Part shown: positions 11,042-55,883 of the stretch, in pieces
How the letters are laid out: each line of letters starts with the position of its first letter
Numbering within the stretch: the first letter of the stretch is position 1
NCBI GenBank assembly: GCA_000004985.1
Contig: GG738860.1
Length of the DNA stretch: 64,000 nt
Strand: one strand, 5' to 3'
Source: Naegleria gruberi
Taxonomy: Eukaryota
The notes under the pieces: model-generated
Database searches by the model: none
What the model saw: the letters and a program-made list of their open reading frames with translations, nothing else
What the model was told of the DNA's origin: nothing
Program-made: the position numbers and the translations under genes

Positions 11042-12106
11042 TTATTTCGACTCCAAACTACTATTGGATTGTGATTGTTTAGAGAGTGGTGTTCTGATTT
11101 TTACAGTACACCTTTTTTTCCATTTTGTTGGTGTGTCATCATCGCTTTTTCTCTTGTTCTTGTTTGGGGAATGGTCAACAAACGATGGTGAATACTTTTC
11201 TTCCTTTGGCTCTTCTTTTGGTGGTGGTGTGAGAATAATAATATTGGTATCGTCTGGCGATAGAATAATTGTGTGAATAGAACTGTCTTTTGTTTCCTCC
11301 TTTTTAATTGGACTAATAGCTTCCAGACCTCCATCAAAACTGTCTGTGAATGAAGAATCCACAAGGTTAATGGTGGTAGAATCACTCTTTCTCTTTGGAA
11401 TGGAGAAGAATGCAAGATTGGGAGTTACGGTTTTTGTCTTTAGCTGCTCTCGTTCTTTTTCTTCCTTAATTATAGAATTAATTATTTTTTCCTCGGGTAA
11501 TGGATTCGTCCTATCAATATTAGAATTATATCGTAGAATGAATTCCTTAATTCTCCAAATCATTTGTTCTCTGGTGCCATGGAGAGGTAATGAATATTTC
11601 TTCAAATATTCTTTGAGTTGATTGTTTTTCAATAATGAAAAACAAAGTGGTGGAAGTTTGCTTTTTTGAATTTGCTCGTGAGTATGTTTGTTGTTTTTAA
11701 GTTGTTCAGACCAGTCGAACGATTCTTGACTTTCACTGATTATTGATTTTTGATCTTCTCTCGTTTGGCTTATTTCCTGACTATGATTTCCAAATTTTTC
11801 CATAAGATCTTTCCTCGCTCTAATATACATATCCATCATATCCGAAACAAAAGGTATTTTAATGATATCACTCTTTGAATATTCCTCTTTACAGACAGGA
11901 CATTTGTTTCTAAATGAAAATTCTCTAGAAATACACAAATCACAAAAGAAGTGATTGCATGTTTTTACACATTTTGGATTATCCATAAATTCTTTACAAA
12001 TAGGACATTGCAAACTCCTCTCGAATTGTGACATTGAAGGAATACTTGACTCCCACCAATCTGCATCGGAAGAGTCCTCAACAGAGAGCAGTGGATGTTT
12101 TGACAT
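11042..12106 (-). CDS. RAD18: RAD18-like E3 ubiquitin ligase (RING + SAP), post-replication repair
   Basis: N-terminal C3HC4 RING (CPICKEFMDNPKCVKTCNHFFCDLCISREFSFRNKCPVCK) followed by a SAP motif (LKEYLKKYSLPLHGTREQMIWRIKEFILRYN; compare human RAD18 LKEHGLSIQGNKQQLIKRHQEFVHMYN). Single exon. Confidence 0.75.
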   Translation of the reverse strand: MSKHPLLSVEDSSDADWWESSIPSMSQFERSLQCPICKEFMDNPKCVKTCNHFFCDLCISREFSFRNKCPVCKEEYSKSDIIKIPFVSDMMDMYIRARKDLMEKFGNHSQEISQTREDQKSIISESQESFDWSEQLKNNKHTHEQIQKSKLPPLCFSLLKNNQLKEYLKKYSLPLHGTREQMIWRIKEFILRYNSNIDRTNPLPEEKIINSIIKEEKEREQLKTKTVTPNLAFFSIPKRKSDSTTINLVDSSFTDSFDGGLEAISPIKKEETKDSSIHTIILSPDDTNIIILTPPPKEEPKEEKYSPSFVDHSPNKNKRKSDDDTPTKWKKRCTVKIRTPLSKQSQSNSSLESK

Positions 12107-12239: not shown

Positions 12240-13124
12240 ATGCAATATTATACAACACAACAACTTCAAGGTCATACAACCTTTAAACCTCACGTTAGAA
12301 TCGGAAATTGGAATGAGGATATTGAATTAATGAACGAAAAACAAAAAGAATTAGAAAGAGCTAAGGATGCTGGTTTGCTTCCTCATCAAGTGATGGAAAA
12401 AAAGTTGCAACATCACATGGAACCAGTAACAATCAAATTTAATGAAGAAAAACAAATTAGATTCGGAGATATTGTTATGATAAAAAGTTTAAATACAAAT
12501 GGGTACTTGTCAATGGATTTGGATACACAACTTCATCATGTTCACGATAGATTTGCTTGCTCCACTTCTCCTTTGGTTAATTCGCCAGTGTCAAGGAATT
12601 GTTATATTGTCGAAAGAGTTGAGAACGATGTCAATATCGATATGATCATTCCTGATGAGGAAAGCCATTTACTTCACTATGGGCAAAAGTTTAGATTGAG
12701 ATGCGTTCCTCAATTTAGTGCACCTGTAAGTATTCTGAGTTCTTCAAACCTTAAAGATTAATCGATTATGCAGCTCTTTTTGAGATCAGAAAAGGCCTCA
12801 CCAACCTGCTTTGCTTCAGGAACTTCAAGCGCAGAGAAATGTCAAGAAGTTTCTGTTGACAAATTGTACACATATGATTCTGTTTGGAAATTTCAATACA
12901 TCCACAAAGGATTTAGACTTGAAAATGAAGGACAAGTGGTTACTCTTGATGATCCACTGATTGTCACTCACTGTGCAACAAATCAATGTTTGAATTCTAC
13001 AAAGAAAACAACTGTTTTGAATGATTTTGGACAAGAATTCCAAGTTTTCTGTAAAACCATGTTAACCATCCACAAGACTGAAGATGTATGCAATCATTTT
13101 GTTTTGACACAAGGAGGAAAATAA
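12240..13124 (+). CDS. CFAP161: CFAP161 (C15orf26)-like cilia/flagella-associated protein
   Basis: Two exons join(12240..12725,12774..13124); 48-nt intron GTAAGT...ATGCAG, phase 0. N-terminal signature HVRIGNWNEDIEL matches CFAP161 RVRMGNWNEDVYL. Further collinear blocks: LHYGQKFRL vs LRYGQDFCL, LIVTHCATNQCL vs ILINHCHTNRGL. Confidence 0.7.
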
Positions 13125-14113: not shown

Positions 14114-16209
14114 TTACTTTTTCTTTGTTGTCTTCTTCTTTTTCTTTGGTTTTTCAGAAACGGATGAATTGAATAAGGATACAGATTCTTTGCTCTTCTT
14201 TTGTTGGAGTTTTTGTTGTTTGGCAGCAAATTGTTTGGCAGCTTTTTGGTTATGATTTGACTTGTTCAAGAAGGATGGTTTGGACACACTACTGGTGTTC
14301 TTATGGCCTTTTTGGCTTCCTTGTTTGGATGTTGATGATTGCATGATGGATAACAATTCTTGAGAGTTTGAAAATGAAGAAATTGAATCCAAAGATGGAG
14401 TAGGCATCATTGATGATGGTTCATCATTGTCTACGAGAGATAATGATTGTTTTTCAATTTCACGTTTTCTCTTCTTGATGGCATTTCTATAAGCTTCCAT
14501 TTGCTTCTTTTCAGCTTCCTTCTTTTTCTCCTCAGCTTCCTTTCTTTCCTTCCTTTCTACTTCCTGCTTTGTATCAGATTTTGATGTGGATGGGATTGCA
14601 ATCTTTGAAAGGGTCATATTGAGAAGTTTAGAACCTCTGGATGAGAATTGACCATAACCACCATCCTTTCTTTGTAATGTTTTAAGATTTTCTTGATTCT
14701 TTTCCAATTGTGCAGCAAGTTGTTTTGGTGTTAGTTTGGCAGAGACAATCTTCTTTCTTCTTGCCCCTAATATGTCATATTCATCATCGTCATCTCCTCC
14801 AAAGCTCATCATGGACATGGTTTCATCTTCCTCTTCGTCTGAAAGACCGGTAATTTCACTTTCTGCTTCTTCATTTCCATAAATGTCTTCTGCCTCTGGA
14901 TCAGAATCAGAAAATGTGACAAAGTCTCCAATTTCTTTTTCAATTTCCTTTTCATCCATATCGTTCAAGTCATCGAATGTCTTATAGTCCAACACATTTC
15001 CTTCATCATCTTCTTCTTCGCATTCATCTGACATGTAGGCTTGGGCTGCCTTAGCTTCCTCTTTCATATCATCAATATATTTCTTAAGGGCCATCTTTTT
15101 CGCCAATTCCTTTCTTTCTTGCTTTTCCTTTTCTTCTTCAGTAAGCTCAACTGTTTCTTCCTCTTCCTGTTCAGAACTCTCTGCTTCATCTTCTTCAGCA
15201 GGTAAATCTGTGGCAAGAGTCATAGTTTGAGGAAGTGGTTCATTAAATGTATCAGTAATGTTGGTTTCTTCAGGTTTATCCACAACATTATCTGACTCAT
15301 CACCCTCTTTCTTTGATTCATCACCTTCTTCATCAGTAGTGGAAACTACTTGTTCTCCTTCTTTGGCTTCTGTTTCATCTTCATCATCTTCATCATCCTC
15401 ATCTTCTTGATTTGGTTCAAAATCTCCATCCTCATCTTCATCATCATTCATTTCTGTTGGTAACATTGCTCCAGGTTTCAATTCTTTAGTAACAACCAAA
15501 TCAAAGTCATCATCGGATGAATCGTCATCATCCTCGTCATCATCACCATCCATAGCATGTTTCAATGTTGACATTTCCTTATCATCCACAAATTTATCAA
15601 CTCTAATTTCTGGTCGTAAAGGTCTTTTGTGACTTAAATGGTCAATTAGAATTAATTCGAATTCAACACTACGTACCAAGCAAAACTATTAACAATTGGC
15701 CCCAAGTGAGTTAAAATTTTAGGAATCAAATCATCCAATGAATTGATATATTTTACAGGTCTTGAGGGTAAATCTTCATCAATAGTTTTGTTTCTCTTAT
15801 ATTGTGCATAGACTGCATCTTCCATATCTTTAACTTGCTTTTCCTTTTTCTTTGATTTGTTTCTGGATCTCTTCTTTCTACCCTTGGAAGTCTTTTCACT
15901 CTTTTCGGTTGTTTCTTCTTCGTCTGCTTGTTCTCCATCATCATTGTTGGTAGTTTCTTCTTCTTCATTTGTTGTTGATTTTCTTTTCATTGATAAGAGT
16001 AATGATTCATCTACTGGTGCTGCATCATCATCTAACAGGGCATCCAAATCATCAAATCCTCCCATCGAAACTCTCATCTTGGCCAATTGTTTAATTTTCA
16101 TCACACTATCCAAATCTATTTCTTCCTCTTCATCAAATTTTACATCACCACCATCTTGTTGCATTTCCTCATCCTCCGAATTTTCGTGATGATTATTTGT
16201 TTGTTCCAT
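14114..16209 (-). CDS. Highly acidic, lysine-tailed nuclear/nucleolar-type low-complexity protein (about 690 aa)
   Basis: Two minus ORFs (15652..16209 and 14114..15679) are joined by a 44-nt intron (15633..15676; donor TG|GTACGT phase 2, acceptor ATTTAAG). This gives complement(join(14114..15632,15677..16209)). Long D/E tracts, KKRKREIEK and a C-terminal KKKKKTTKKK tail. Family not identified. Confidence 0.55.
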
Positions 16210-30885: not shown

Positions 30886-30966
30886 GCGGTCTTGACCGAG
30901 TGGTTAAGGTGATTGACTAGAAATCAATTGGGGCGACCCGCACAGGTTCGAATCCTGTAGACCGCG
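30886..30966 (+). tRNA. tRNA-Ser (anticodon AGA)
   Basis: Hand-folded cloverleaf. Acceptor GCGGTCT/AGACCGC (7 bp), U8; D-arm ACC-GAGTGGTTAA-GGT (3-bp stem, Ser-type); anticodon stem ATTGA/TCAAT with loop CTAGAAA (anticodon AGA); 13-nt variable arm TGGGGCGACCCGC; T-arm ACAGG-TTCGAAT-CCTGT; discriminator G. Internal Pol III A-box (AGTGGTTAAGG) and B-box (GGTTCGAATCC) present. Followed by T5-T6. Confidence 0.85.
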
Positions 30967-46757: not shown

Positions 46758-47579
46758 ATGTCTAACATTTTCTCATTCTTCGGTCAAGAGATCAAAACTG
46801 GTGCTCCTCAAGCTTTCGAAATTCCATTCGGTGAAGTTATTCTCCACTTGTCCACCGTCTCTCTTGCTAAGGATACTCCAAAGGGAGCAATTACCAGAGT
46901 TTTTGTTCACTCAGTTGATGAAGATGACAAGGAAACGAAGGAATCTGTCTCCATTGACTTGAACTTCAGCGAAGATGTTGCCCTCTCTATTGAAACATCC
47001 GCTAATGATGATACTACTGTCCACGTTACTGGTTATATTAACTTGATTAACGAAGATGGTGAAGAAGGTGAGTATGGTGGATATTCAGTCATTGACGGCG
47101 ATAATCTTGAAGATGAAAGTGATGAAGAAGAAAAGACCAAGCTCTTGAGAAAGATGTTGGAAGAAGAAGATGACGAAGAAGATGAAGATTTCAAACCAGA
47201 TTTGAACGAATCATCTGAATCTGCAAAGCTCGAAGAATTGAGTGACGAAGATGATATTGAACCAATTGTCGGTGAAGAAGATGACGAAGATGTCGATCTT
47301 GATGAAGAACAAACTGAGGAAGTTGTTAAGAGAGTTCAAGATTTAGAAACTAGATTGGGAAGAGAAGCTAACGATGAAGAAATCAAGGGTATTGTTGAAA
47401 GAGTTCAATCTGGCATTCCTGAACCAAAGAAGGAACAAAAGCAACCACAAAAACAACAACAAAAACAACAACCAAAGCAACAACAAAAGCAACAACCAAA
47501 GGAAGATAAGAAGAGAAAGCAAGAAGAAGCTCTAGGAAATAACAAGAAGAATAAGAACAAGAAGAATAAGAAGAAATAA
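46758..47579 (+). CDS. Acidic nuclear protein with nucleoplasmin-like N-terminal domain (tentative) and Q/K-rich tail
   Basis: N-terminus MSNIFSFFGQEIKTGAPQAFEIPFGEVILHLSTVSLAKD...ITRVFVHSV resembles the NPL fold of HD2/FKBP-type nucleoplasmins (FWG.E.K.G...LHLSQA.LG). D/E tracts follow, then a (QQQKQQPK)n tail. Single exon. Confidence 0.5.
   Translation: MSNIFSFFGQEIKTGAPQAFEIPFGEVILHLSTVSLAKDTPKGAITRVFVHSVDEDDKETKESVSIDLNFSEDVALSIETSANDDTTVHVTGYINLINEDGEEGEYGGYSVIDGDNLEDESDEEEKTKLLRKMLEEEDDEEDEDFKPDLNESSESAKLEELSDEDDIEPIVGEEDDEDVDLDEEQTEEVVKRVQDLETRLGREANDEEIKGIVERVQSGIPEPKKEQKQPQKQQQKQQPKQQQKQQPKEDKKRKQEEALGNNKKNKNKKNKKK
47454..47501 (+). repeat. 24-nt tandem repeat x2 (CAACAACAAAA[A/G]CAACAACCAAAG) encoding QQQKQQPK x2
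   Basis: Direct inspection; one A/G difference between copies. Confidence 0.6.
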
Positions 47580-47634: not shown

Positions 47635-47993
47635 TTAGAATGAATTACTTCCTTTAAAAACTAGAACTGCAAGGTTTCCATTGAAATAAAGGTAAAGTAA
47701 GTTCTTTGCTTCATGAGTCACTGACACTCCGAATCCTTCTCCTATTATACAATGCCATGATTTACCATATTTCTTATCCATTTGGGTTTTAATTGCCTTA
47801 GCAGCATTTTCATAATTTTGGGGTGATTTTTCCAAAGCTGTTTCAATTGCTGTTGATACTGTTTCAACACAGTCTATCCTCATATCTTCCGGCATATCAC
47901 AATGCTTAGAAATTTATTTTGTATAACTTGATGATTTAAAAGACCTACCACTACGAGCGCTAAATTATTTGCTGGATTTCCTTCTTCTGCCAT
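47635..47993 (-). CDS. DYNLL: Dynein light chain LC8 (DYNLL family)
   Basis: complement(join(47635..47904,47949..47993)); 44-nt intron GTAGGT...TTCTAAG, phase 0. Product MAEEGNPANNLALVVHCDMPEDMRIDCVETVSTAIETALEKSPQNYENAAKAIKTQMDKKYGKSWHCIIGEGFGVSVTHEAKNLLYLYFNGNLAVLVFK matches the LC8 pattern ([44 protein letters not shown]). Exon 1 (15 codons) is less certain. Confidence 0.68.
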
Positions 47994-48121
47994 TTTTTTT
48001 GTAAATTTATCTGATAAAATTGGCGGGCGCTTGAACTGCAACTAACACTTGGGGTAGGTGGACCTAAAGAAATTACGCTGAAGGTGAAAATCTGTTATTT
48101 ATTAATTCTCTCATCAAAAAA

Positions 48122-49705
48122 ATGGACGATCAACCACTTGAAGAAGACCGTCTATCACAAACTAATGAACAAAAGGATAACAATTCTGCTGTTTCAAATG
48201 CAGAACAAGATAAGGGATCATTGTATGAGAGAGGAAAACAGTTTTTAACAATTAAGGAATCAAAGCTTAGCAAAGAGAGAGAAAGAAAAGTGAATCAAGG
48301 ATCATCAGAATGTACTTTCCAACCAAATATATCAAAGAAGAGTAAAAACATGACTCGGGAAGAGAGTTTGTACGAATATAACAACAAGTGGGTATGTACT
48401 ACATCGCATTTATTTTACTAAGATGTTCGTTAACAGAAATCTAAAGTTGATCATAACATTGAGGAACTAAGAGCAAAGCAATTGAAAAGAGAAGAAGAAC
48501 AAATCCATGCAAAACCATCACCATTATCTGTTGTTTCACAATTTATAATTCAAAAGAAACAGGAACAGAAGGAATATTCAGGTCCTATTACTGGTTGGGA
48601 GAAGAGATTTGATGAATATCGTCATAAGAATCAAATGTATTATGATGAAGAGTACAACTTTTCTCCAAGAATTAATGAGAAATCAACATTGTTGGCCAAC
48701 AAAAATAGATCCGATGCAGAATCAAATCCTTTTGAAAGACTTTATGGAGATTCAAAAAAGAAAAAGGATGAGGAATCCTCAAGTCCAAAAGACAAGAAAA
48801 AGTCGTCTGAATACGACGATGAAAGAAGGAGAGCTGAGGCAGAGTTTTATAAGAAGGCACTTGAAAGACATTTAGAGGCAGAAAAGAAGAAAGCAAAAAT
48901 GAAAGAAGATCAAGAAGATCAATACTCTTTTAAACCTGCTATTAACAAACATTCAAAGGATATAGCCAAACATTTGGAAAGACCACCACTTTATTCACCA
49001 AAGAAAGGTTCTTCACCATCTCAAACTATTTCCCTTGAGAATACCGTTACTACAAATACAAGTACTAATTCTAATACTACTAAGCCAGATAGTCCTTCTC
49101 CAAACAAAAAGAAGTTCGAAGTTGATAACTTTATTCAAAGAAGACTTACTAAGGAGAAACAAAGACAAGATAAGATTAATCAACTTAAACACGATATAAT
49201 AGAAGAGGAAATGAAAGAATGTACATTTAAGCCTTCGATCAATCAAAAGTCTGTGGAGCTTGCACACTTGTGGATTGAATCATTTGATAATGATTTGGAA
49301 GAATTATATGAATTTGACCCAAGATACAATCAATCTTCTCCTAAACCATTCTTGAAAAAGAATTCATCACCTGGTTTGTCATCTTCCAAGAAGGAAAAAA
49401 CAAAAGGAAGTCCAATTAGACAGAGCTTGAAATCAAGTTCTTCCAATATTATTGAGTCAATCATAGATGATGCTATGAAGAGTATTGAAATGGAAAGATC
49501 CCTGAAATCAACACCAAAGAGCTCAGTCGAGATGTCAAAAGAACCTACACTAAAAGAAATTGTAACACCAAGAATCTCAGAATCAAACAGAAAGAGATAC
49601 TCTCTATCTGATGATGAAGATGATGACTTTGTATCAATAGAAAATGAAATGAAATCGGCCATCCAAGAATTTGAAGAAGAATGGAGTAAATATGAAGGCT
49701 TGTAA
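48122..49705 (+). CDS. K/E-rich protein with three C-[TY]-F-[KQ]-P-x-I-N-x-K-S motifs (possible microtubule-associated TPX2-like repeats; tentative)
   Basis: Two exons join(48122..48391,48437..49705); 45-nt intron GTATGT...TAACAG, phase 0. Repeats ECTFQPNISKKSK, YSFKPAINKHSK, CTFKPSINQKS spaced about 100 aa apart. No catalytic motif. Confidence 0.55.
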
Positions 49706-49706
49706 A

Positions 49707-51966
49707 CTAACACATAAATGCTTTAATTTCTTTTGAAACTGTCGAAATTGCACTTTCTAAATCCGTTATCTTGGAAGACAAGTCAACCCAATGTAAATCA
49801 ACTCTTCCTTCGCTGTAACCAATTGCTACTCTGTCATTCTTATTCAGAGCTTTCATTAAATCTGGTTGGTGATGAACTAGCACACTTTGCACTTTCTCCT
49901 TTTGAGAAAGACAAATTAATCCTAATTTGCAGCTCACTCTATTAATCTTATCTTTGGATTGTGATTTTAAGGTCACCTTTTCACAGAATATTAACTTATC
50001 GTTTTGAATGAGATCGAATACCATTAGATCATCATCACTGGTTAAAACAAAGAATACAGATGGATGAACAGCACTCCACTTAATATCTACAATACTTGAG
50101 TTGGTGTAATGTTTAAAGTTAATGATTGGATCTTCGTATCCTTTCAGAAACAGAGCAAACATTCCATTTTCGTAACCAGCAAGAAAATATTGAGGTAAGA
50201 AAAATGAAAATTCCACACACGTAACTCTTGATGTAATATGATGAATATTGGACGAGTACCCATCCTTTCTTTTTACAATGTTGTATGGTTTTATATTGTC
50301 AATGAATCTTCCTCTTCTCAGTATATGTCCAAAATCTGTTCCAACCAATATCCTAAAAGATTAAGTTTCATTGTGTTCGAAATACTTACTGTGAAGAGTC
50401 GTCTGGATCAACCTCGAAACAAACAGCAGCTTCAATTGAGGGAATAAATTGTTCATGGTTGGTATTATCATTTGCGTTTGTAAATCCTTTAAGGATAGAG
50501 GCAGCTAAACTTGTTTCATTCTCCACCTTTTTCAAGTTTAGCTCTAATGTTGGCTCTCCGAATACGTTCATTCTTCCACTGTTTACAATTTTTACCTTTC
50601 CACCAATATTCAACCCAATCTCTGTATCAGAGACTCCACTATCAGGTCTTAGATTCCATCTTAATGTTGTTTTACTTACTGTTGAGAGAGGAATATCACA
50701 AGCCAATAAATTACATTACCAGCTTCATCCAGAGAAATAAAATAATCTCCCATACTTCTTATTTCGTTTGAATATATTGAGAGTTGAGAACTGATAGTTT
50801 TCACTTGGACTACAGAGCACAAGTGAGTTTCACTGAAGAGATTAGCTGTTGAAAAGGATGGAGTGAGGAATGACAATGGAGATTCTTCAATTATTCTTGT
50901 CTTTGGATTTTGATTTGAATCCCAAACAACTACAGATCCATCATTTGCACCAGCAATAATAATATTTGGTCTATCTGGAAGGCAACAAACGCTTGTCAAT
51001 TCACAACCATAAATTAAACAGCTTAAATAGGTGAAATTAAAATCGAATGATCTATCAAGTTAATACTTACAGGACTGGTGATTTTTCATTTAGAGTATCC
51101 CAGATACAAACCAATCCAGTTTCAATTTCTACATTTGAATAATTAGGTCCGTAACATACTATCATTTGGTTATCTTTTGAGAAAATAATTTCCTTAACCT
51201 CTCTTCCATTTGTCAGAGGATGGCCGAAAACAGAATAGCTACTACTAAACTTAAACATAGATTCTCTATTCTTTGTATCTGATTCTGTATTACTACTGGT
51301 GTTAGATTCTAGAATCCTGTCACAGACTGGATAGACAGCTTTCAAAAATCTTGACAATGACAGAGAATTAAATTTGAACTTGTCCATACTATTCTTTGGT
51401 GTACTCTTACTTGATATACCTAAATCTTCTGGTGCTTGGATCGCTTTTACTGACTGTGTTGGTGGTATTGTGTTACATCCCATTTCCTTCTTTTCATCCA
51501 ACGGAGGACATTGAACAGAAGTCTGCATAGATGTTCCTTTTCCAAATGATCTTTGATACATTTCAAAATCAGATAGTGGAGGTAAATCCATCACTTCAAA
51601 TGAAACATTATCCAATGTAATTAATTCCAATAGCTTTTGAGCTCTGTCCAACTTTTTTTGATTTTTTTCAAGTCTCTCCTTTTCTTCCTTTGAGAGAGTA
51701 GGTTTAATTTTGATAGCCTTTGTTGTGATTTCCTCTTGTCTAATTATCTTGATGAATTTCAATCCAAGTTTAAATCCTTACCTGGTGCTCGGAGTTGTAT
51801 TTACAATTTTATCATTTTGTATTTCAACCCTAGATTGAAATGTCTGAGGCACTATTGTTTTTGCAGGTGCACTATTGAACACTGGTTTTTGAGGTACTTC
51901 TTCCTCAAAGTCATCCTCGAAATCATCCTCGAAATCATCATCAAAATCGTCATCAAAGTCAGACAT
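49707..51966 (-). CDS. WD40 protein resembling dynein-2 intermediate chain WDR34/DYNC2I2 (tentative), six exons, acidic DFDDDF N-terminus
   Basis: complement(join(49707..50352,50390..50647,50680..51021,51071..51739,51782..51966)); the 50647/50680 junction (32-nt intron) is the least certain, all other introns 37-49 nt with GTAAG donors. Block IVCYGPNYSNVEIETGLVCIWDTLNEKSP parallels WDR34 [30 protein letters not shown]. Candidate LC8-binding TQT-like site GTSMQTSVQ. WD-type repeats follow (GSVVVWD, NVIYW). Confidence 0.6.
51906..51965. repeat. 12-nt tandem repeat x5 ((A/G)TCATC(C/A)TC(G/A)AA-like) encoding (DFDD/DFED)n on the minus strand
   Basis: aagtcatcctcg / aaatcatcctcg / aaatcatcatca / aaatcgtcatca / aagtcagac. 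Read directly from the sequence. Confidence 0.6.
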
Positions 51967-52079
51967 TTTTTTTGCTTATTTTTCCCTCCAAAATTGTAGT
52001 TTGCAGTTGAATAGGTTTTTAAACAACCGCAGCTCTTACATATAATTTTTATTACAAAACATTTTACACCTTTCCCTCT

Positions 52080-54409
52080 CTAATAATCATTTACTTTTTG
52101 AATTAAATTATTGGAATTCTTAACAAGATTTTTAAGATTCTCCATTTGATAGGCAGGCGCCTTTCCTAAATATTGTTGCTCAAGTTTGGATTGAACGGCC
52201 TTCTTGAGTGTTGAAAAGAATAATGGCTCATCAGCTAAAAAGTCATCCTTAGTTGCTCGCAGAGGATATTTAGAATCTGCTGTTGGTAGAACATCATCTG
52301 TTAATTCGCTATCTGAAGAATTACCTCCATTTTCATCATTTTCTGCCTTCTTCTTCAAATGTAAATATGTCTTGTTGGTAAGATTTTCAAATTTAGCTTC
52401 CTTCTCTTTACTTTTAGTGGCAGCTTCTTGTTCACCACCAGCCTCGGCAATTTTCATTAATACATTCGAATAAGATTCTTGGACAATACTCAAGAAAATG
52501 TTAACAATTGCACAAACTGTAAAATTGTTATCATATAAATTTTAAATTTCTGATAAACTTACTGAAAAGCAATAACTATTTATGTTATTAGCAATATTAT
52601 TCAATTAAATAAACTTACAAATATGACAGTATAAGCTCTTCCCAATATTTTGTAGAAAGTTCCATAAGCATACAATTTCTCGAATACAATTCTAAGGTTG
52701 TCACCTTGAAGGGCACTATATAATGTGACCATAGTGTTATCAATGTTTTTGAAATCTTACCAGTGTTAAATATTTGTTAAGTTTCAAACTTACAAGAAGA
52801 GTAAAATCCGAACCACATAACACCTGTGCAAACAAATGCCGCAAATATTGGAGCTATACTGAACAAATACTTCATAATTATTGGAATAGCTCTTGTAAAT
52901 GCTCTAATGACTAATATAATGTCAATCATTTGTTAATGTCGCTAATAACTTACCCAAGTAGAATTTTGCTTGATAATTAAAGTATTTTGTTAAATTTACA
53001 AGAGAAAGGAATGATCCAATGCCAAGAAATGTTTGAGAAGCTAATTCTGTACTCTCACCTGATTTGACAATCATTGTAATATATCCAATAATTAACATGA
53101 CATCTTTAAGGAAAGCAACATAAATCCAAATTCCTAGATAATCAGTAAATAGGTCATAAAATCTCATCAATTTGTTTGTTTTTTTTCTTTTCTGTAATGT
53201 GTTTAGAATTGTTACCAATATCTTGGGTACTTACAAAGAATACAGTTAATCTAGTAATTAATGATTTGTTGTAAAATATAAAAGAAATAAACGCAAAAAT
53301 ACACATCAAAATACCAATCCAACCTCTTGGTCTTTGGAAAATAGATGAATAATAAGCATCTTCATTTGCCACACAATTATCTTTTTGGAAAATTATTATT
53401 ATCATATCAGAAATTATCTACACAACTTACCATACTTGTAAGATAATCTCATTGGAACTCTGCCACCTCCATCAAAAACGAACTTAAAGAGAACAGTCCA
53501 TTTGTAGCAATTAGGAAATCCCTGAACTTTGGTATCAATACTTATCAGTTTGAAAAAGAGTTCCAAGTTTGTGATTCTGTCAACAAGATATTTAAGATCG
53601 TCTCCTGTCACGTTAAATAGAGAGCCAAGGGGTTCTGAATCTGTTAAATTCTCATTGATTTCGATGGTTTCATCAGAAAATAATGAGTGAACGTCTCTTC
53701 TTGCAATAAATCTCCAATCAATCATTGATGGATCGCTATCTCCATTAGTTTCATTTGCAATTAGTCGTCTAATATTTTCCTTATATAAGGTAGCTCTCAA
53801 TTTTACAAGATTTTGACTAGTAGGAACAAAAACACTAACAGAATTTTCCTGTATCGAATAGTATTTTGCTACAAGACTCTGAATATTCTTCTGCAGATCG
53901 TCCACATTATAAATGTAATAAGTGAAGAAACCTAACAAGAAATGTTAGAAATACTGAAATTCTCTCTACTCACCATCATCGTTATCCTTAATATTTTGAA
54001 ATCCACTATGAAATAATTAACTTGAAAATATGAATTATTCAACCTACTTTGGAAGGAAATAATTCGAAAAAGTATTACTCATATCTGATTTATATCCTTT
54101 AAATTCGGATGCATAAAAGATAATAAAAAGAATTACTAATGCAGCCTGGATAATATCTGTTACTAATTTTGTTGGAAATACTCTATACTTTAAAAACTTT
54201 TGTACAAGTGACAATTGAATCGCTTCTTCTTCATCATCGATTTTTTGTGGTAAAACTCTTTCTTTAAGAAAAGTATAGGAACGAGCCAACAGAGTTGGTG
54301 TTTGCAATTGCACTTGAGAGTTTGATGGCAAATTCAATTGATTAAAATCGTCATCGTCTCCCAACTGCACCGTGCTATTGGCAAGAAGAGATTGTCTCAA
54401 TCTTTGCAT
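52080..54409 (-). CDS. TRP-family cation channel of the mucolipin/polycystin-2 (TRPML/TRPP) type, about 9 exons
   Basis: Minus exons (ORF-track pieces 54044..54409, 53414..53938, 53154..53405, 52922..53218, 52080..52493 plus small exons in 52500..52900) are linked by 37-50-nt GTAAGT/GTAGGT introns. N-terminal cytosolic region, then S1 (LVTDIIQAALVILFIIFYASEF). Large S1-S2 ectodomain with N-glycosylation sites and CYKWTVLFKFVFDGGGRVPMRLSYK. S2-S5, then pore helix with TLYSALQGDNLRIVFEKLYAYG (compare TRPML ETLFALVNGDDMF). S6 VIFVCAIVNIFLSIVQESYSNVL. Exact internal exon boundaries not all resolved. Confidence 0.6.

Positions 54410-55883
<1,474 letters not shown>

What the first reader, a model, noticed from the sequence alone, without database searches (positions are those of the whole stretch)
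47635..51966. Dynein-2 intermediate-chain-like WD40 gene sits 1.7 kb from an LC8 dynein light chain gene
LC8 (47635..47993) and a WDR34/DYNC2I2-like WD40 protein (49707..51966) are physical partners in dynein complexes. The WD protein carries a TQT-like LC8-binding candidate (GTSMQTSVQ). The two genes lie on the same strand, separated only by a K/E-rich gene with TPX2-like F-K-P-x-I-N repeats that may itself be microtubule-associated. Functional clustering of cytoskeletal motor subunits is unusual in eukaryotes. It hints at co-regulation of a ciliary/dynein module.
Basis: partly seen in the sequence, partly recalled or inferred. Interest (0 to 1): 0.55.

Follow-up and report, generated by a model that had tools for sequence, protein, structure and literature searches.

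The report
Neighbouring ciliary dynein genes in Naegleria
Two genes for parts of cilium motors do sit 1.7 kb apart in this Naegleria-type genome, but they belong to two different motors (the transport dynein-2 and the beating outer-arm dynein), so the neighbourhood looks like ordinary inherited gene order and not a partner-gene cluster.

Summary
The three genes are real and lie at the stated coordinates. The window is Naegleria-like: the WD protein is 67% identical to N. lovaniensis.

Both identities need correcting.
- The 696-aa WD protein is a WDR60/DYNC2I1-type dynein-2 intermediate chain (PDB phmmer E=1e-30). WDR34 scores only E=0.007.
- The 104-aa "LC8" is a DNAL4/LC10-type outer-arm light chain. 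It scores 98 bits to the Leishmania 112-aa axonemal light chain against 64 bits to Leishmania canonical LC8. It is 52% identical to an insect DNAL4 and 42% to human DYNLL1.
- Published composition tables place DNAL4 in outer arms only. Dynein-2 uses DYNLL1/2.

Two further claims fail.
- The proposed "GTSMQTSVQ" site is not conserved even in N. lovaniensis or Willaertia.
- The middle gene has four CTFxPxIN-type repeats but no TPX2 or other Pfam match. It belongs to an uncharacterised family found in flagellated protists.

The trio is collinear in three related genomes, but so is the surrounding roughly 10-gene block. A more distant relative lacks the trio.

An E2F-like GGCGSS box lies upstream of both dynein genes. 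It also lies at neighbouring non-ciliary promoters.

Verdict: ordinary, low interest.

The parts
47635..47993 (-). DNAL4/LC10-type LC8-family dynein light chain gene. Exons 47993-47949 and 47904-47635, one 44-nt intron, 104 aa.
   Evidence: Gene model. Pfam Dynein_light E=1.2e-28. Best PDB matches are the 112-aa light chains of the Leishmania tarentolae 96-nm repeat 9Y6S (98 bits, 4 chains) and of 9E5C (91 bits, 3 chains). The canonical LC8 in the same entries scores 64 and 72 bits (30 and 38 chains). Chlamydomonas LC10 scores 70 bits. It is 52% identical to Onthophagus DNAL4 and 42% to human DYNLL1.
47994..48121 (.). 128-bp divergent intergenic region between the light-chain ATG and the middle-gene ATG. 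Presumed bidirectional promoter.
   Evidence: Sequence. The head-to-head arrangement is kept in N. lovaniensis (76 bp), Willaertia (47 bp) and the fourth Naegleria-like contig L004.
48016..48031 (+). E2F-like GC box AAAATTGGCGGGCGCT inside the divergent promoter.
   Evidence: It is one of only five GGCGSS sites in the 64-kb window, and all five lie within 200 bp upstream of an ATG. Orthologous boxes occur in L001 (GGTGGCGCCATTT) and L004 (AAAATGGCGCCAC). Willaertia L002 has none here.
48122..49705 (+). Middle gene: a K/S/E-rich 512-aa protein with four [CY]xFxPxI[NS]xxS repeats. Exons 48122-48391 and 48437-49705. The repeats lie at 48311-48343, 48653-48685, 48923-48955 and 49220-49252.
   Evidence: Gene model and repeats. 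Orthologues occur in N. lovaniensis (54%) and Willaertia (41%). A profile search gave 453 relatives at E<=1e-3. The named ones come from diplonemids, Entosiphon, Tetrahymena (TTHERM_00558650), volvocine and Chlamydomonas algae and unclassified flagellates, and all are 'hypothetical'. There is no Pfam family and no solved relative.
49707..51966 (-). WDR60/DYNC2I1-type dynein-2 intermediate chain gene. Five exons (51966-51782, 51739-51071, 51021-50720, 50678-50390, 50352-49707), 696 aa.
   Evidence: Gene model. PDB phmmer gives human WDR60 (6rlb_C) at E=1.2e-30 and 109.9 bits, aligned over residues 444-988. The next intermediate chain scores 38 bits, and WDR34 scores 18 bits at E=0.007. [quoted passage not shown]
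51541..51588 (-). Conserved WDR60 N-terminal motif DLPPLSDFEMYQRSFG (residues 113-128).
   Evidence: It aligns to human DLPPVNEYDMYIRNFG and to bird, gecko and rotifer WDR60.
51511..51537 (-).
   Evidence: It is present in the window. It is not conserved: N. lovaniensis has DATLNVS, Willaertia has SGSMTAT and vertebrates have MNTKQAY.
51424..51465 (-). PPTQSVKAIQAPED (residues 154-167). This is the better-conserved candidate light-chain-binding stretch. The assignment is inference only.
   Evidence: [IV]QAPED is invariant in the three heteroloboseans and aligns with vertebrate KWTQHPGE. I note a resemblance to the K-x-T-Q-T-P site of the dynein-1 intermediate chain; that comes from my own knowledge and was not tested.
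51967..52161 (.). Region upstream of the WD gene. It comprises a 113-bp intergenic spacer after the stop of the TRPML-type channel gene (52080), plus a GGCGCC box at 52156-52161 inside that gene's 3' coding end, 190 bp upstream of the WD ATG.
   Evidence: Orthologous boxes lie about 70, 32 and 60 bp upstream of the WD ATG in L001, L002 and L004.

Best explanation
This stretch of a Naegleria-type genome holds three independent genes.
- The first encodes the WDR60/DYNC2I1-type intermediate chain of dynein-2, the retrograde intraflagellar-transport motor.
- The second, on the opposite strand, encodes an uncharacterised repeat protein with CTFxPxIN-type motifs.
- The third encodes a DNAL4/LC10-type light chain. 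In the solved axonemes this protein sits in the light-chain tower of the outer dynein arm, which is the beat-generating motor.

The two dynein genes therefore serve two different ciliary dyneins. They are neighbours because they were inherited together in a gene block that has stayed collinear across Naegleria and Willaertia.

Each gene has its own very short promoter. The light chain shares a 128-bp divergent promoter with the middle gene. The WD gene starts 113 bp after the stop of a TRPML-type channel gene.

Both dynein genes are probably switched on in the amoeba-to-flagellate transition, like flagellar genes in general. That step is inferred and not shown here. It does not depend on the two genes being adjacent.
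For: Identities:
- WDR60 scores E=1.2e-30 against E=0.007 for WDR34.
- Every named hit is DYNC2I1.
- The light chain scores 98 and 91 bits to the 112-aa light chains present in 4 and 3 copies in the Leishmania 9Y6S and 9E5C axoneme models. Canonical LC8 in the same models scores 64 and 72 bits and is present in 30 and 38 copies.
- The light chain is 52% identical to DNAL4 and 42% to DYNLL1. JGI names its close relatives 'dynein light chain 4'.

Literature:
- DNAL4 is listed as outer-arm dynein only. DYNLL1/2 are listed for dynein-1, dynein-2, the outer arm and inner arm f (PMC10886578).
- DNAL4 is the homologue of Chlamydomonas LC10, an outer-arm component (PMC6028525).
- Human dynein-2 splits into WDR34-DYNLL-DYNLRB and WDR60-TCTEX1D2-DYNLT subcomplexes (PMC6589695 abstract).

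Synteny:
- The order cobW, RWP-RK, Rab7, TRPML, WDR60, middle gene, light chain, NPL, DEAH helicase is collinear in the window, N. lovaniensis, Willaertia and a fourth Naegleria-like contig.
- Conservation of the trio is therefore not specific to the trio.
- In a 26%-GC relative, a 73%-identical DNAL4-type gene lies beside an importin-11 gene and what reads as an AP-complex sigma-subunit gene (my reading of the downstream ORF, not searched). No WDR60 or middle-gene homologue lies within 10 kb on its 5' side; only about 0.7 kb of its 3' side is on the contig.

Chance:
- About 0.3 dynein-dynein pairs and about 30 cilium-cilium pairs within two gene positions are expected per genome. This is my estimate, using about 16,000 genes.
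- The TRPML channel and Rab7, both endolysosomal, are also adjacent in the same 10 kb. Such pairs are evidently easy to find.
Against: - The trio has stayed contiguous in Willaertia, although genes were inserted on both sides of it there.
- Both dynein promoters carry a rare E2F-like GGCGSS box that is kept in the related genomes. This could mean shared regulation.
- Relatives of the middle gene were seen only in flagellated taxa. It could therefore be a third ciliary gene, sharing a promoter with the light chain.
- I could not obtain expression data for these gene models.
- No experiment excludes that a DNAL4-type light chain also binds dynein-2 in Naegleria.
Confidence: 0.72

Rival explanations
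1. The light chain and the WD protein are physical partners in one dynein complex, the light chain docks on a TQT-like site, and the genes are clustered for co-regulation as a dynein module.
For: - Both proteins belong to dynein subunit families.
- Dynein-2 intermediate chains do bind LC8 dimers through their N-terminal disordered region (PMC10886578).
- The adjacency is kept in four related genomes.
Against: - The light chain is the outer-arm paralogue and not canonical LC8.
- The intermediate chain is WDR60. In human cells its mapped light-chain partners are TCTEX1D2-DYNLT, while DYNLL maps to WDR34.
- The proposed motif is not conserved in the closest relatives.
- The whole block is collinear, so the synteny is uninformative. 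The cluster is absent in L003.
Confidence: 0.08
2. A small co-regulated ciliary gene neighbourhood. The WD gene, the middle gene and the light chain are all induced through the shared AAA(T)GGCG(C/G)(C/G) E2F-like box, the middle gene being a new ciliary or microtubule protein expressed from the light chain's bidirectional promoter.
For: - All five GGCGSS sites in 64 kb lie within 200 bp upstream of an ATG.
- All three recognisable ciliary genes of the window (CFAP161-like, light chain, WD gene) have one.
- Boxes persist at orthologous promoters.
- The 128-bp head-to-head promoter is conserved.
- The middle-gene family was seen only in flagellated taxa.
Against: - The same box sits at the DEAH-helicase/nucleoplasmin promoter, at the RAD18 side of the CFAP161 promoter, and upstream of an acidic gene (ATG at 16209).
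- That spread fits an ordinary cell-cycle E2F site whose real targets could be the non-ciliary partner genes.
- Willaertia lacks the box in the light-chain/middle-gene spacer.
- The window's WD box lies inside the neighbouring gene's coding sequence.
- The sample is tiny and the test is post hoc.
- Taxon sampling for the middle-gene family is biased towards protists, most of which are flagellated.
Confidence: 0.13
3. In Naegleria the DNAL4-type light chain has been recruited into dynein-2, replacing one LC8 dimer of the tower on the intermediate chain. In that case the neighbours would be true partners in this lineage only.
For: - Outer-arm and dynein-2 light-chain towers have the same architecture: Tctex, three LC8 dimers, Roadblock. 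LC8-like paralogues replace LC8 at some positions in outer arms (PMC10886578).
- The WD protein has a conserved Q-containing stretch at residues 154-167.
Against: - There is no precedent in any solved dynein-2 or in published composition studies.
- The closest solved homologues occur in the axoneme models at 4 and 3 copies per model against 30 and 38 for canonical LC8, which fits one copy per outer arm (my inference from the copy numbers).
Confidence: 0.05

Closest known systems
DYNC2I1 / WDR60 (Chlamydomonas FAP163), dynein-2 intermediate chain 1
   Same: It is the best match by a wide margin (E=1.2e-30, aligned to human residues 444-988). It shares the DLPP(L/V)x(E/D)(Y/F)(E/D)MYxRxFG motif, followed by a Q-rich linker and a C-terminal WD40 region. 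All named homologues are DYNC2I1.
   Different: It is 696 aa against 1,066 aa in human. The long charged N-terminal extension (about 450 aa in human) is reduced to about 95 residues that begin with a DDDF/EDDF acidic repeat. Identity to vertebrate proteins is only about 25%.
DYNC2I2 / WDR34 (FAP133), dynein-2 intermediate chain 2
   Same: Same superfamily of dynein WD40 intermediate chains, and a similar overall length.
   Different: It scores only E=0.007 and 18 bits, below the outer-arm, inner-arm and dynein-1 intermediate chains.
DNAL4 / Chlamydomonas LC10 / Tetrahymena LC8_1a, the outer-arm LC8-like light chain
   Same: It gives the highest scores to the 112-aa light chains of the kinetoplastid axoneme models (present at 4 and 3 copies), to Chlamydomonas LC10 and to Tetrahymena LC10. 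It is 52% identical to insect DNAL4. It shares the IGEGFG and KNLLYLYF stretches seen in that alignment, and a roughly 10-20-residue N-terminal extension.
   Different: The margin over canonical LC8 is small when only Chlamydomonas is compared (70 against 63 bits). No tree was built. Its location in Naegleria flagella has not been tested.
Canonical LC8 (DYNLL1/2), the LC8 of dynein-1, dynein-2, the outer arm and inner arm f
   Same: Same Pfam family, Dynein_light, and the same fold family.
   Different: Only 42% identical to human DYNLL1. From my own knowledge, canonical LC8 is usually about 90% conserved across eukaryotes. VGRNFG is replaced by IGEGFG.
TPX2 / Xklp2 microtubule-binding repeats
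   Same: It is basic and acidic, low in complexity, and has short aromatic-Pro repeats.
   Different: There is no hit to the TPX2 Pfam families or to any other family at E<=1, and none to any solved protein. The repeat is (E)CTFxPxINxxS, and it defines a separate, unnamed family.

Membership tests
DYNC2I1 / WDR60 | Closest sequence relationship is to WDR60 and not to any other dynein intermediate chain (both directions in spirit) | tested here: met
   PDB phmmer gives WDR60 109.9 bits against at most 38 bits for every other intermediate chain. All named hits in the 5.8-billion-protein search are DYNC2I1/WDR60.
DYNC2I1 / WDR60 | C-terminal WD40 beta-propeller | tested here: met
   It aligns to the human WDR60 propeller region up to residue 988. 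Pfam WD40 and beta-propeller models hit residues 270-330 and 505-620, all below their gathering scores. No structure was predicted.
DYNC2I1 / WDR60 | Conserved N-terminal DLPPxxEYxMYxRxFG segment ahead of the light-chain-binding linker | tested here: met
   Residues 113-128 align with the human, bird, gecko and rotifer proteins.
DYNC2I1 / WDR60 | Assembles with the DYNC2H1 heavy chain, WDR34 and the light chains; needed for retrograde intraflagellar transport | not testable with these tools
   Needs biochemistry or genetics in Naegleria.
DYNC2I2 / WDR34 | Closest sequence relationship is to WDR34 | tested here: not met
   E=0.007 and 18 bits. It ranks below about 35 other chains.
Canonical LC8 (DYNLL) | Near-identity to DYNLL1/2, and the best match among LC8-family paralogues | tested here: not met
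   42% identity to DYNLL1. Canonical LC8 chains score 63-72 bits, against 91-98 bits for the 112-aa light chains of the same axoneme models.
DNAL4 / LC10 outer-arm light chain | Best match is to DNAL4/LC10-type paralogues | tested here: met
   The top PDB chains are the 4-copy and 3-copy 112-aa light chains of 9Y6S (Leishmania tarentolae) and 9E5C. [quoted passage not shown]
   Inferred by homology only. DNAL4 is described as an outer-arm component in PMC6028525 and PMC10886578.
LC8-binding (TQT) site in the WD protein | A conserved anchor motif of the [TVI]-Q-[TV] type in the disordered N-terminal region | tested here: inconclusive
   SMQTS is not conserved in N. lovaniensis or Willaertia. 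[IV]QAPED at residues 162-167 is conserved and aligns to vertebrate TQHPGE, but it is not a canonical TQT.
TPX2 family (middle gene) | Match to the TPX2 / TPX2_importin Pfam models | tested here: not met
   No such hit at E<=1. Ten family relatives also have no Pfam family.
Functional gene cluster (co-regulated, selected adjacency) | Adjacency conserved beyond the background synteny, or more frequent than chance | tested here: not met
   The whole block of about 10 genes is collinear. The cluster is absent in L003. My chance estimate is not small.
Functional gene cluster (co-regulated, selected adjacency) | Correlated expression of the members | not tested
   The Fritz-Laylin & Cande 2010 paper and the supplements of Kennard et al. 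are not held.

The most novel reading that the evidence does not exclude
The AAA(T)GGCG(C/G)(C/G) E2F-like box is a cis-element of the Naegleria amoeba-to-flagellate programme. It marks the promoters of all three recognisable ciliary genes in this window. The CTFxPxIN-repeat gene that shares the light chain's 128-bp bidirectional promoter is a new, widely conserved ciliary or basal-body protein. If so, the locus would give a first handle on how a cell without RFX, FOXJ1 or XAP5 switches on its cilium genes, with an echo of E2F4/5 use in animal multiciliated cells.
Probability: 0.1. Interest if true: 0.6.

Novelty: already known. Interest (0 to 1): 0.18.

Why it matters
As it stands, this matters little. 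It corrects two annotations: WDR60 and not WDR34, and DNAL4/LC10 and not LC8. It also shows that the apparent motor-subunit cluster is two different ciliary motors lying side by side in a compact, collinear genome.

Two by-products could be worth a cheap genome-wide follow-up.
- A rare E2F-like promoter box lies upstream of every ciliary gene in the window. The regulators of cilium genes in Naegleria are unknown (PMC12183034).
- An unnamed CTFxPxIN-repeat protein family is spread across flagellated protists, and no member examined had a functional name.

Tried and rejected
1. Four-gene ciliary cluster.
- The N. lovaniensis and Willaertia annotations showed a 'PKD_channel' gene next to the WD gene, and an 'Arf' gene beyond it.
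- I built the window's channel model. Its solved relatives are mucolipins TRPML1-3 and not polycystin-2.
- The small GTPase is Rab7.
- Both are endolysosomal, so I dropped the idea.

2. TPX2 or any other known microtubule-binding family for the middle gene. There is no Pfam hit and no PDB hit, including the solved axonemal proteins. No paper mentions the Tetrahymena member TTHERM_00558650.

3. Expression data. The supplements of the Kennard et al. preprint are not held. Fritz-Laylin & Cande 2010 and the Current Biology version are not held either.

I repeated the search with database homologues only.

5. Deeper synteny. Only one more distant light-chain locus was long enough to read (L003), and it lacks the cluster.

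6. Hidden RNA genes or repeats in the focal region. There are none. The window has only tRNA-Ser at 30886-30966, plus coding low-complexity repeats.

7. The word-indexed search for the light chain scored only 10 candidates. I therefore could not show a separate canonical LC8 gene in Naegleria.

Full report
**What is there**

The window is AT-rich (about 32% G+C) and eukaryotic, with GT..AG introns of 37-49 nt. I rebuilt three gene models between 47.6 and 52.0 kb.
- The light-chain gene is on the minus strand: 47993-47949 and 47904-47635, 104 aa.
- The middle gene is on the plus strand: 48122-48391 and 48437-49705, 512 aa.
- The WD gene is on the minus strand, with five exons from 51966 to 49707, 696 aa.

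It is head-to-head with the light chain, with 128 bp between the ATGs. It is tail-to-tail with the WD gene, whose stop codon ends 1 bp away.

The WD protein is 67% identical to Naegleria lovaniensis C9374_002353 and 50% identical to a Willaertia magna protein. The window is therefore from a Naegleria-type heterolobosean.

**Identity of the WD protein**

- A phmmer search of all PDB chains puts human WDR60/DYNC2I1 first (6rlb_C, E=1.2e-30, 109.9 bits). The alignment runs from the conserved DLPP..EY.MY.R.FG segment through the propeller.
- The next dynein intermediate chains reach at most 38 bits, and WDR34 reaches 18 bits at E=0.007.
The paralogue is WDR60 and not WDR34.
- The protein lacks most of the long charged N-terminal extension of the human protein. 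It starts with a DDDF/EDDF acidic repeat.

**Identity of the light chain**

- Pfam places it in Dynein_light (E=1.2e-28).
- Its best PDB matches are 112-aa light chains present at four copies in 9Y6S (98 bits) and three copies in 9E5C (91 bits). 9Y6S is the Leishmania tarentolae 96-nm axonemal repeat.
- The canonical LC8 of the same entries is present at 30 and 38 copies and scores 64 and 72 bits.
- Chlamydomonas 'light chain 10' and Tetrahymena 'LC8_1a (LC10)' come next, at 70 and 68 bits. Human DYNLL1/2 score 66-68 bits.
- It is 52% identical to an insect DNAL4 and 42% identical to human DYNLL1.
- JGI calls its close relatives 'dynein light chain 4'.
- DNAL4 is the homologue of Chlamydomonas LC10 and is an outer-arm component (PMC6028525).
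- The subunit table in PMC10886578 lists DNAL4 for the outer arm only, and DYNLL1/2 for dynein-1, dynein-2, the outer arm and inner arm f.
- In human cells DYNLL maps to the WDR34 subcomplex, and WDR60 maps to TCTEX1D2-DYNLT (PMC6589695 abstract).
- The two neighbours are therefore subunits of two different ciliary dyneins and are not known partners.

**The proposed docking site**

- GTSMQTSVQ is present at residues 130-138.
- The aligned positions read DATLNVS in N. lovaniensis, SGSMTAT in Willaertia and MNTKQAY in vertebrates. It is not a conserved TQT-type anchor.
- A better-conserved stretch follows at residues 154-167 (PPTQSVKAIQAPED). Its [IV]QAPED is invariant in the three heteroloboseans and aligns with vertebrate KWTQHPGE.
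- Calling that stretch the light-chain-binding linker is my inference.

**The middle gene**

- It is K/S/E-rich (14%, 13% and 13%).
- It has four copies of [CY]xFxPxI[NS]xxS.
- It has no Pfam family, TPX2 included, at E<=1. It has no solved relative.
- A profile built from its Naegleria and Willaertia homologues finds 453 proteins at E<=1e-3 in the 1.8-billion representative library.
- Those with names come from diplonemids, Entosiphon, Tetrahymena, Chlamydomonas sp. UWO241, Astrephomene and two unclassified flagellate eukaryotes. All are 'hypothetical'.
- The retrieved sequences show four to eight ECTFxPxxN repeats.
- The taxa are all flagellated, which is compatible with a ciliary role. Sampling is biased, however, and I have no direct evidence.

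**Is the neighbourhood special?**

- In N. lovaniensis, Willaertia and a fourth Naegleria-like contig, the order TRPML channel, WDR60, middle gene, light chain is kept.
- The flanking cobW, RWP-RK, Rab7, nucleoplasmin-like, DEAH-helicase and ABC1 genes are kept as well. Conservation is therefore a property of the whole block.
- In a 26%-GC relative (L003), a 73%-identical DNAL4-type gene lies beside an importin-11 gene and what reads as an AP-complex sigma-subunit gene (my reading of the downstream ORF, not searched). No WDR60 or middle-gene homologue lies within 10 kb on its 5' side, and only about 0.7 kb of its 3' side is on the contig.
- With about 16,000 genes and an assumed 50 dynein-subunit genes, about 0.3 dynein-dynein pairs within two gene positions are expected per genome. 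For about 500 ciliary genes the expectation is about 30 pairs.
- The apparent 'PKD channel' next door is a mucolipin-type channel. It sits beside Rab7, which is a second 'functional pair' in the same 10 kb and shows how easily such pairs turn up.

- The hexamer GGCG(C/G)(C/G), counted on either strand, occurs only five times in the 64 kb. All five lie within 200 bp upstream of a start codon:
  - 12186, in the divergent promoter shared by a RAD18-like RING-finger gene (identified from its sequence by my own reading, not searched) and a CFAP161-like gene (the CFAP161-like gene has Pfam E=6.7e-5)
  - 16277, upstream of an acidic gene
  - 46657, in the DEAH helicase / nucleoplasmin divergent promoter
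  - 48022, in the light chain / middle gene divergent promoter
  - 52156, 190 bp upstream of the WD ATG and inside the channel gene's 3' coding end
- Orthologous boxes are present upstream of the WD gene in all three related loci.
- They are present in the light-chain spacer in two of the three loci, and in the helicase/nucleoplasmin spacer in two of the three.
- With its flanks, the box reads AAA(T)GGCG(C/G)(C/G), which is E2F-like.
- It is clearly a promoter element, and it does lie upstream of all three ciliary genes of the window.
- It also lies at non-ciliary promoters. In two of the three ciliary cases it is shared with a non-ciliary or unknown divergent partner.
- It therefore does not single out the dynein pair.

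**Expression**

I could not retrieve gene-level data. The preprint text states that 6,389 genes change more than 2-fold in differentiation, and that most axonemal dynein heavy chains and all microtubule inner protein (MIP) homologues are differentiation-specific. Co-induction of the two dynein genes is therefore likely, but it would not be evidence for a cluster.

**Verdict**

- The family-level reading is right.
- The paralogue assignments and the partner argument are wrong.
- The clustering is best explained as inherited collinearity in a compact genome.

Noticed in passing
window 12186, 16277, 46657, 48022, 52156; L001 9931, 14022, 15609; L002 9969, 17035; L004 9424, 13784: A rare E2F-like box, AAA(T)GGCG(C/G)(C/G). 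All five copies in the 64-kb window lie within 200 bp upstream of a start codon, and most are kept at orthologous promoters in related genomes. It marks the CFAP161-like, light-chain and WD genes. It also marks the RAD18-like, nucleoplasmin-like, DEAH-helicase and one acidic gene.
   Followed up: partly
window 12240-12761 (+): The first exon of a CFAP161-like gene (Pfam PF24569, E=6.7e-5). In other organisms CFAP161 is a doublet-microtubule inner protein (my own knowledge). It is a third ciliary gene, 36 kb from the dynein pair, and it is head-to-head with a RAD18-like RING-finger gene (ATG at 12106; identified by my own reading of the sequence, not searched).
   Followed up: partly
window 48122-49705 (+): The middle gene belongs to an unnamed family with 4-8 (E)CTFxPxINxxS repeats. 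The family has 453 relatives at E<=1e-3, in heteroloboseans, diplonemids, euglenids, Tetrahymena, volvocine algae and unclassified flagellates. No member examined had a function, a Pfam family or a solved structure.
   Followed up: partly
window 52080-54409 (-) and about 55006-55740 (+): A mucolipin (TRPML)-type channel gene lies next to a Rab7 gene. The two endolysosomal genes are head-to-head, about 600 bp apart. They are also adjacent in N. lovaniensis. In Willaertia one gene separates them.
   Followed up: partly
window 49705/49707; L001 12357/12365; L002 12365/12368: The converging WD and middle genes end 1-8 bp apart in all three genomes. Their 3' untranslated regions must therefore overlap as antisense transcripts if both genes are expressed together.
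   Followed up: no
window 51902-51961 (-): The WD protein starts with a 12-nt tandem repeat encoding DDDF/EDDF five times. This acidic N-terminal tag stands in place of the long charged extension of animal WDR60.
   Followed up: no
L003 10001-10324: An intron-less DNAL4-type gene, 73% identical, on a 26%-GC contig from sequencing run SRR23962323. It lies next to an importin-11 gene and what reads as an AP-complex sigma-subunit gene (not searched). The organism is not identified.
   Followed up: partly
window 30886-30966 (+): A single tRNA-Ser(AGA) gene. It is the only Rfam or ARAGORN hit in the window.
   Followed up: no
window 47422-47572 (+): The C-terminal tail of the nucleoplasmin-like gene is encoded by 12/24-nt tandem repeats (QQKQQP units, then KKNKN).
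   Followed up: no
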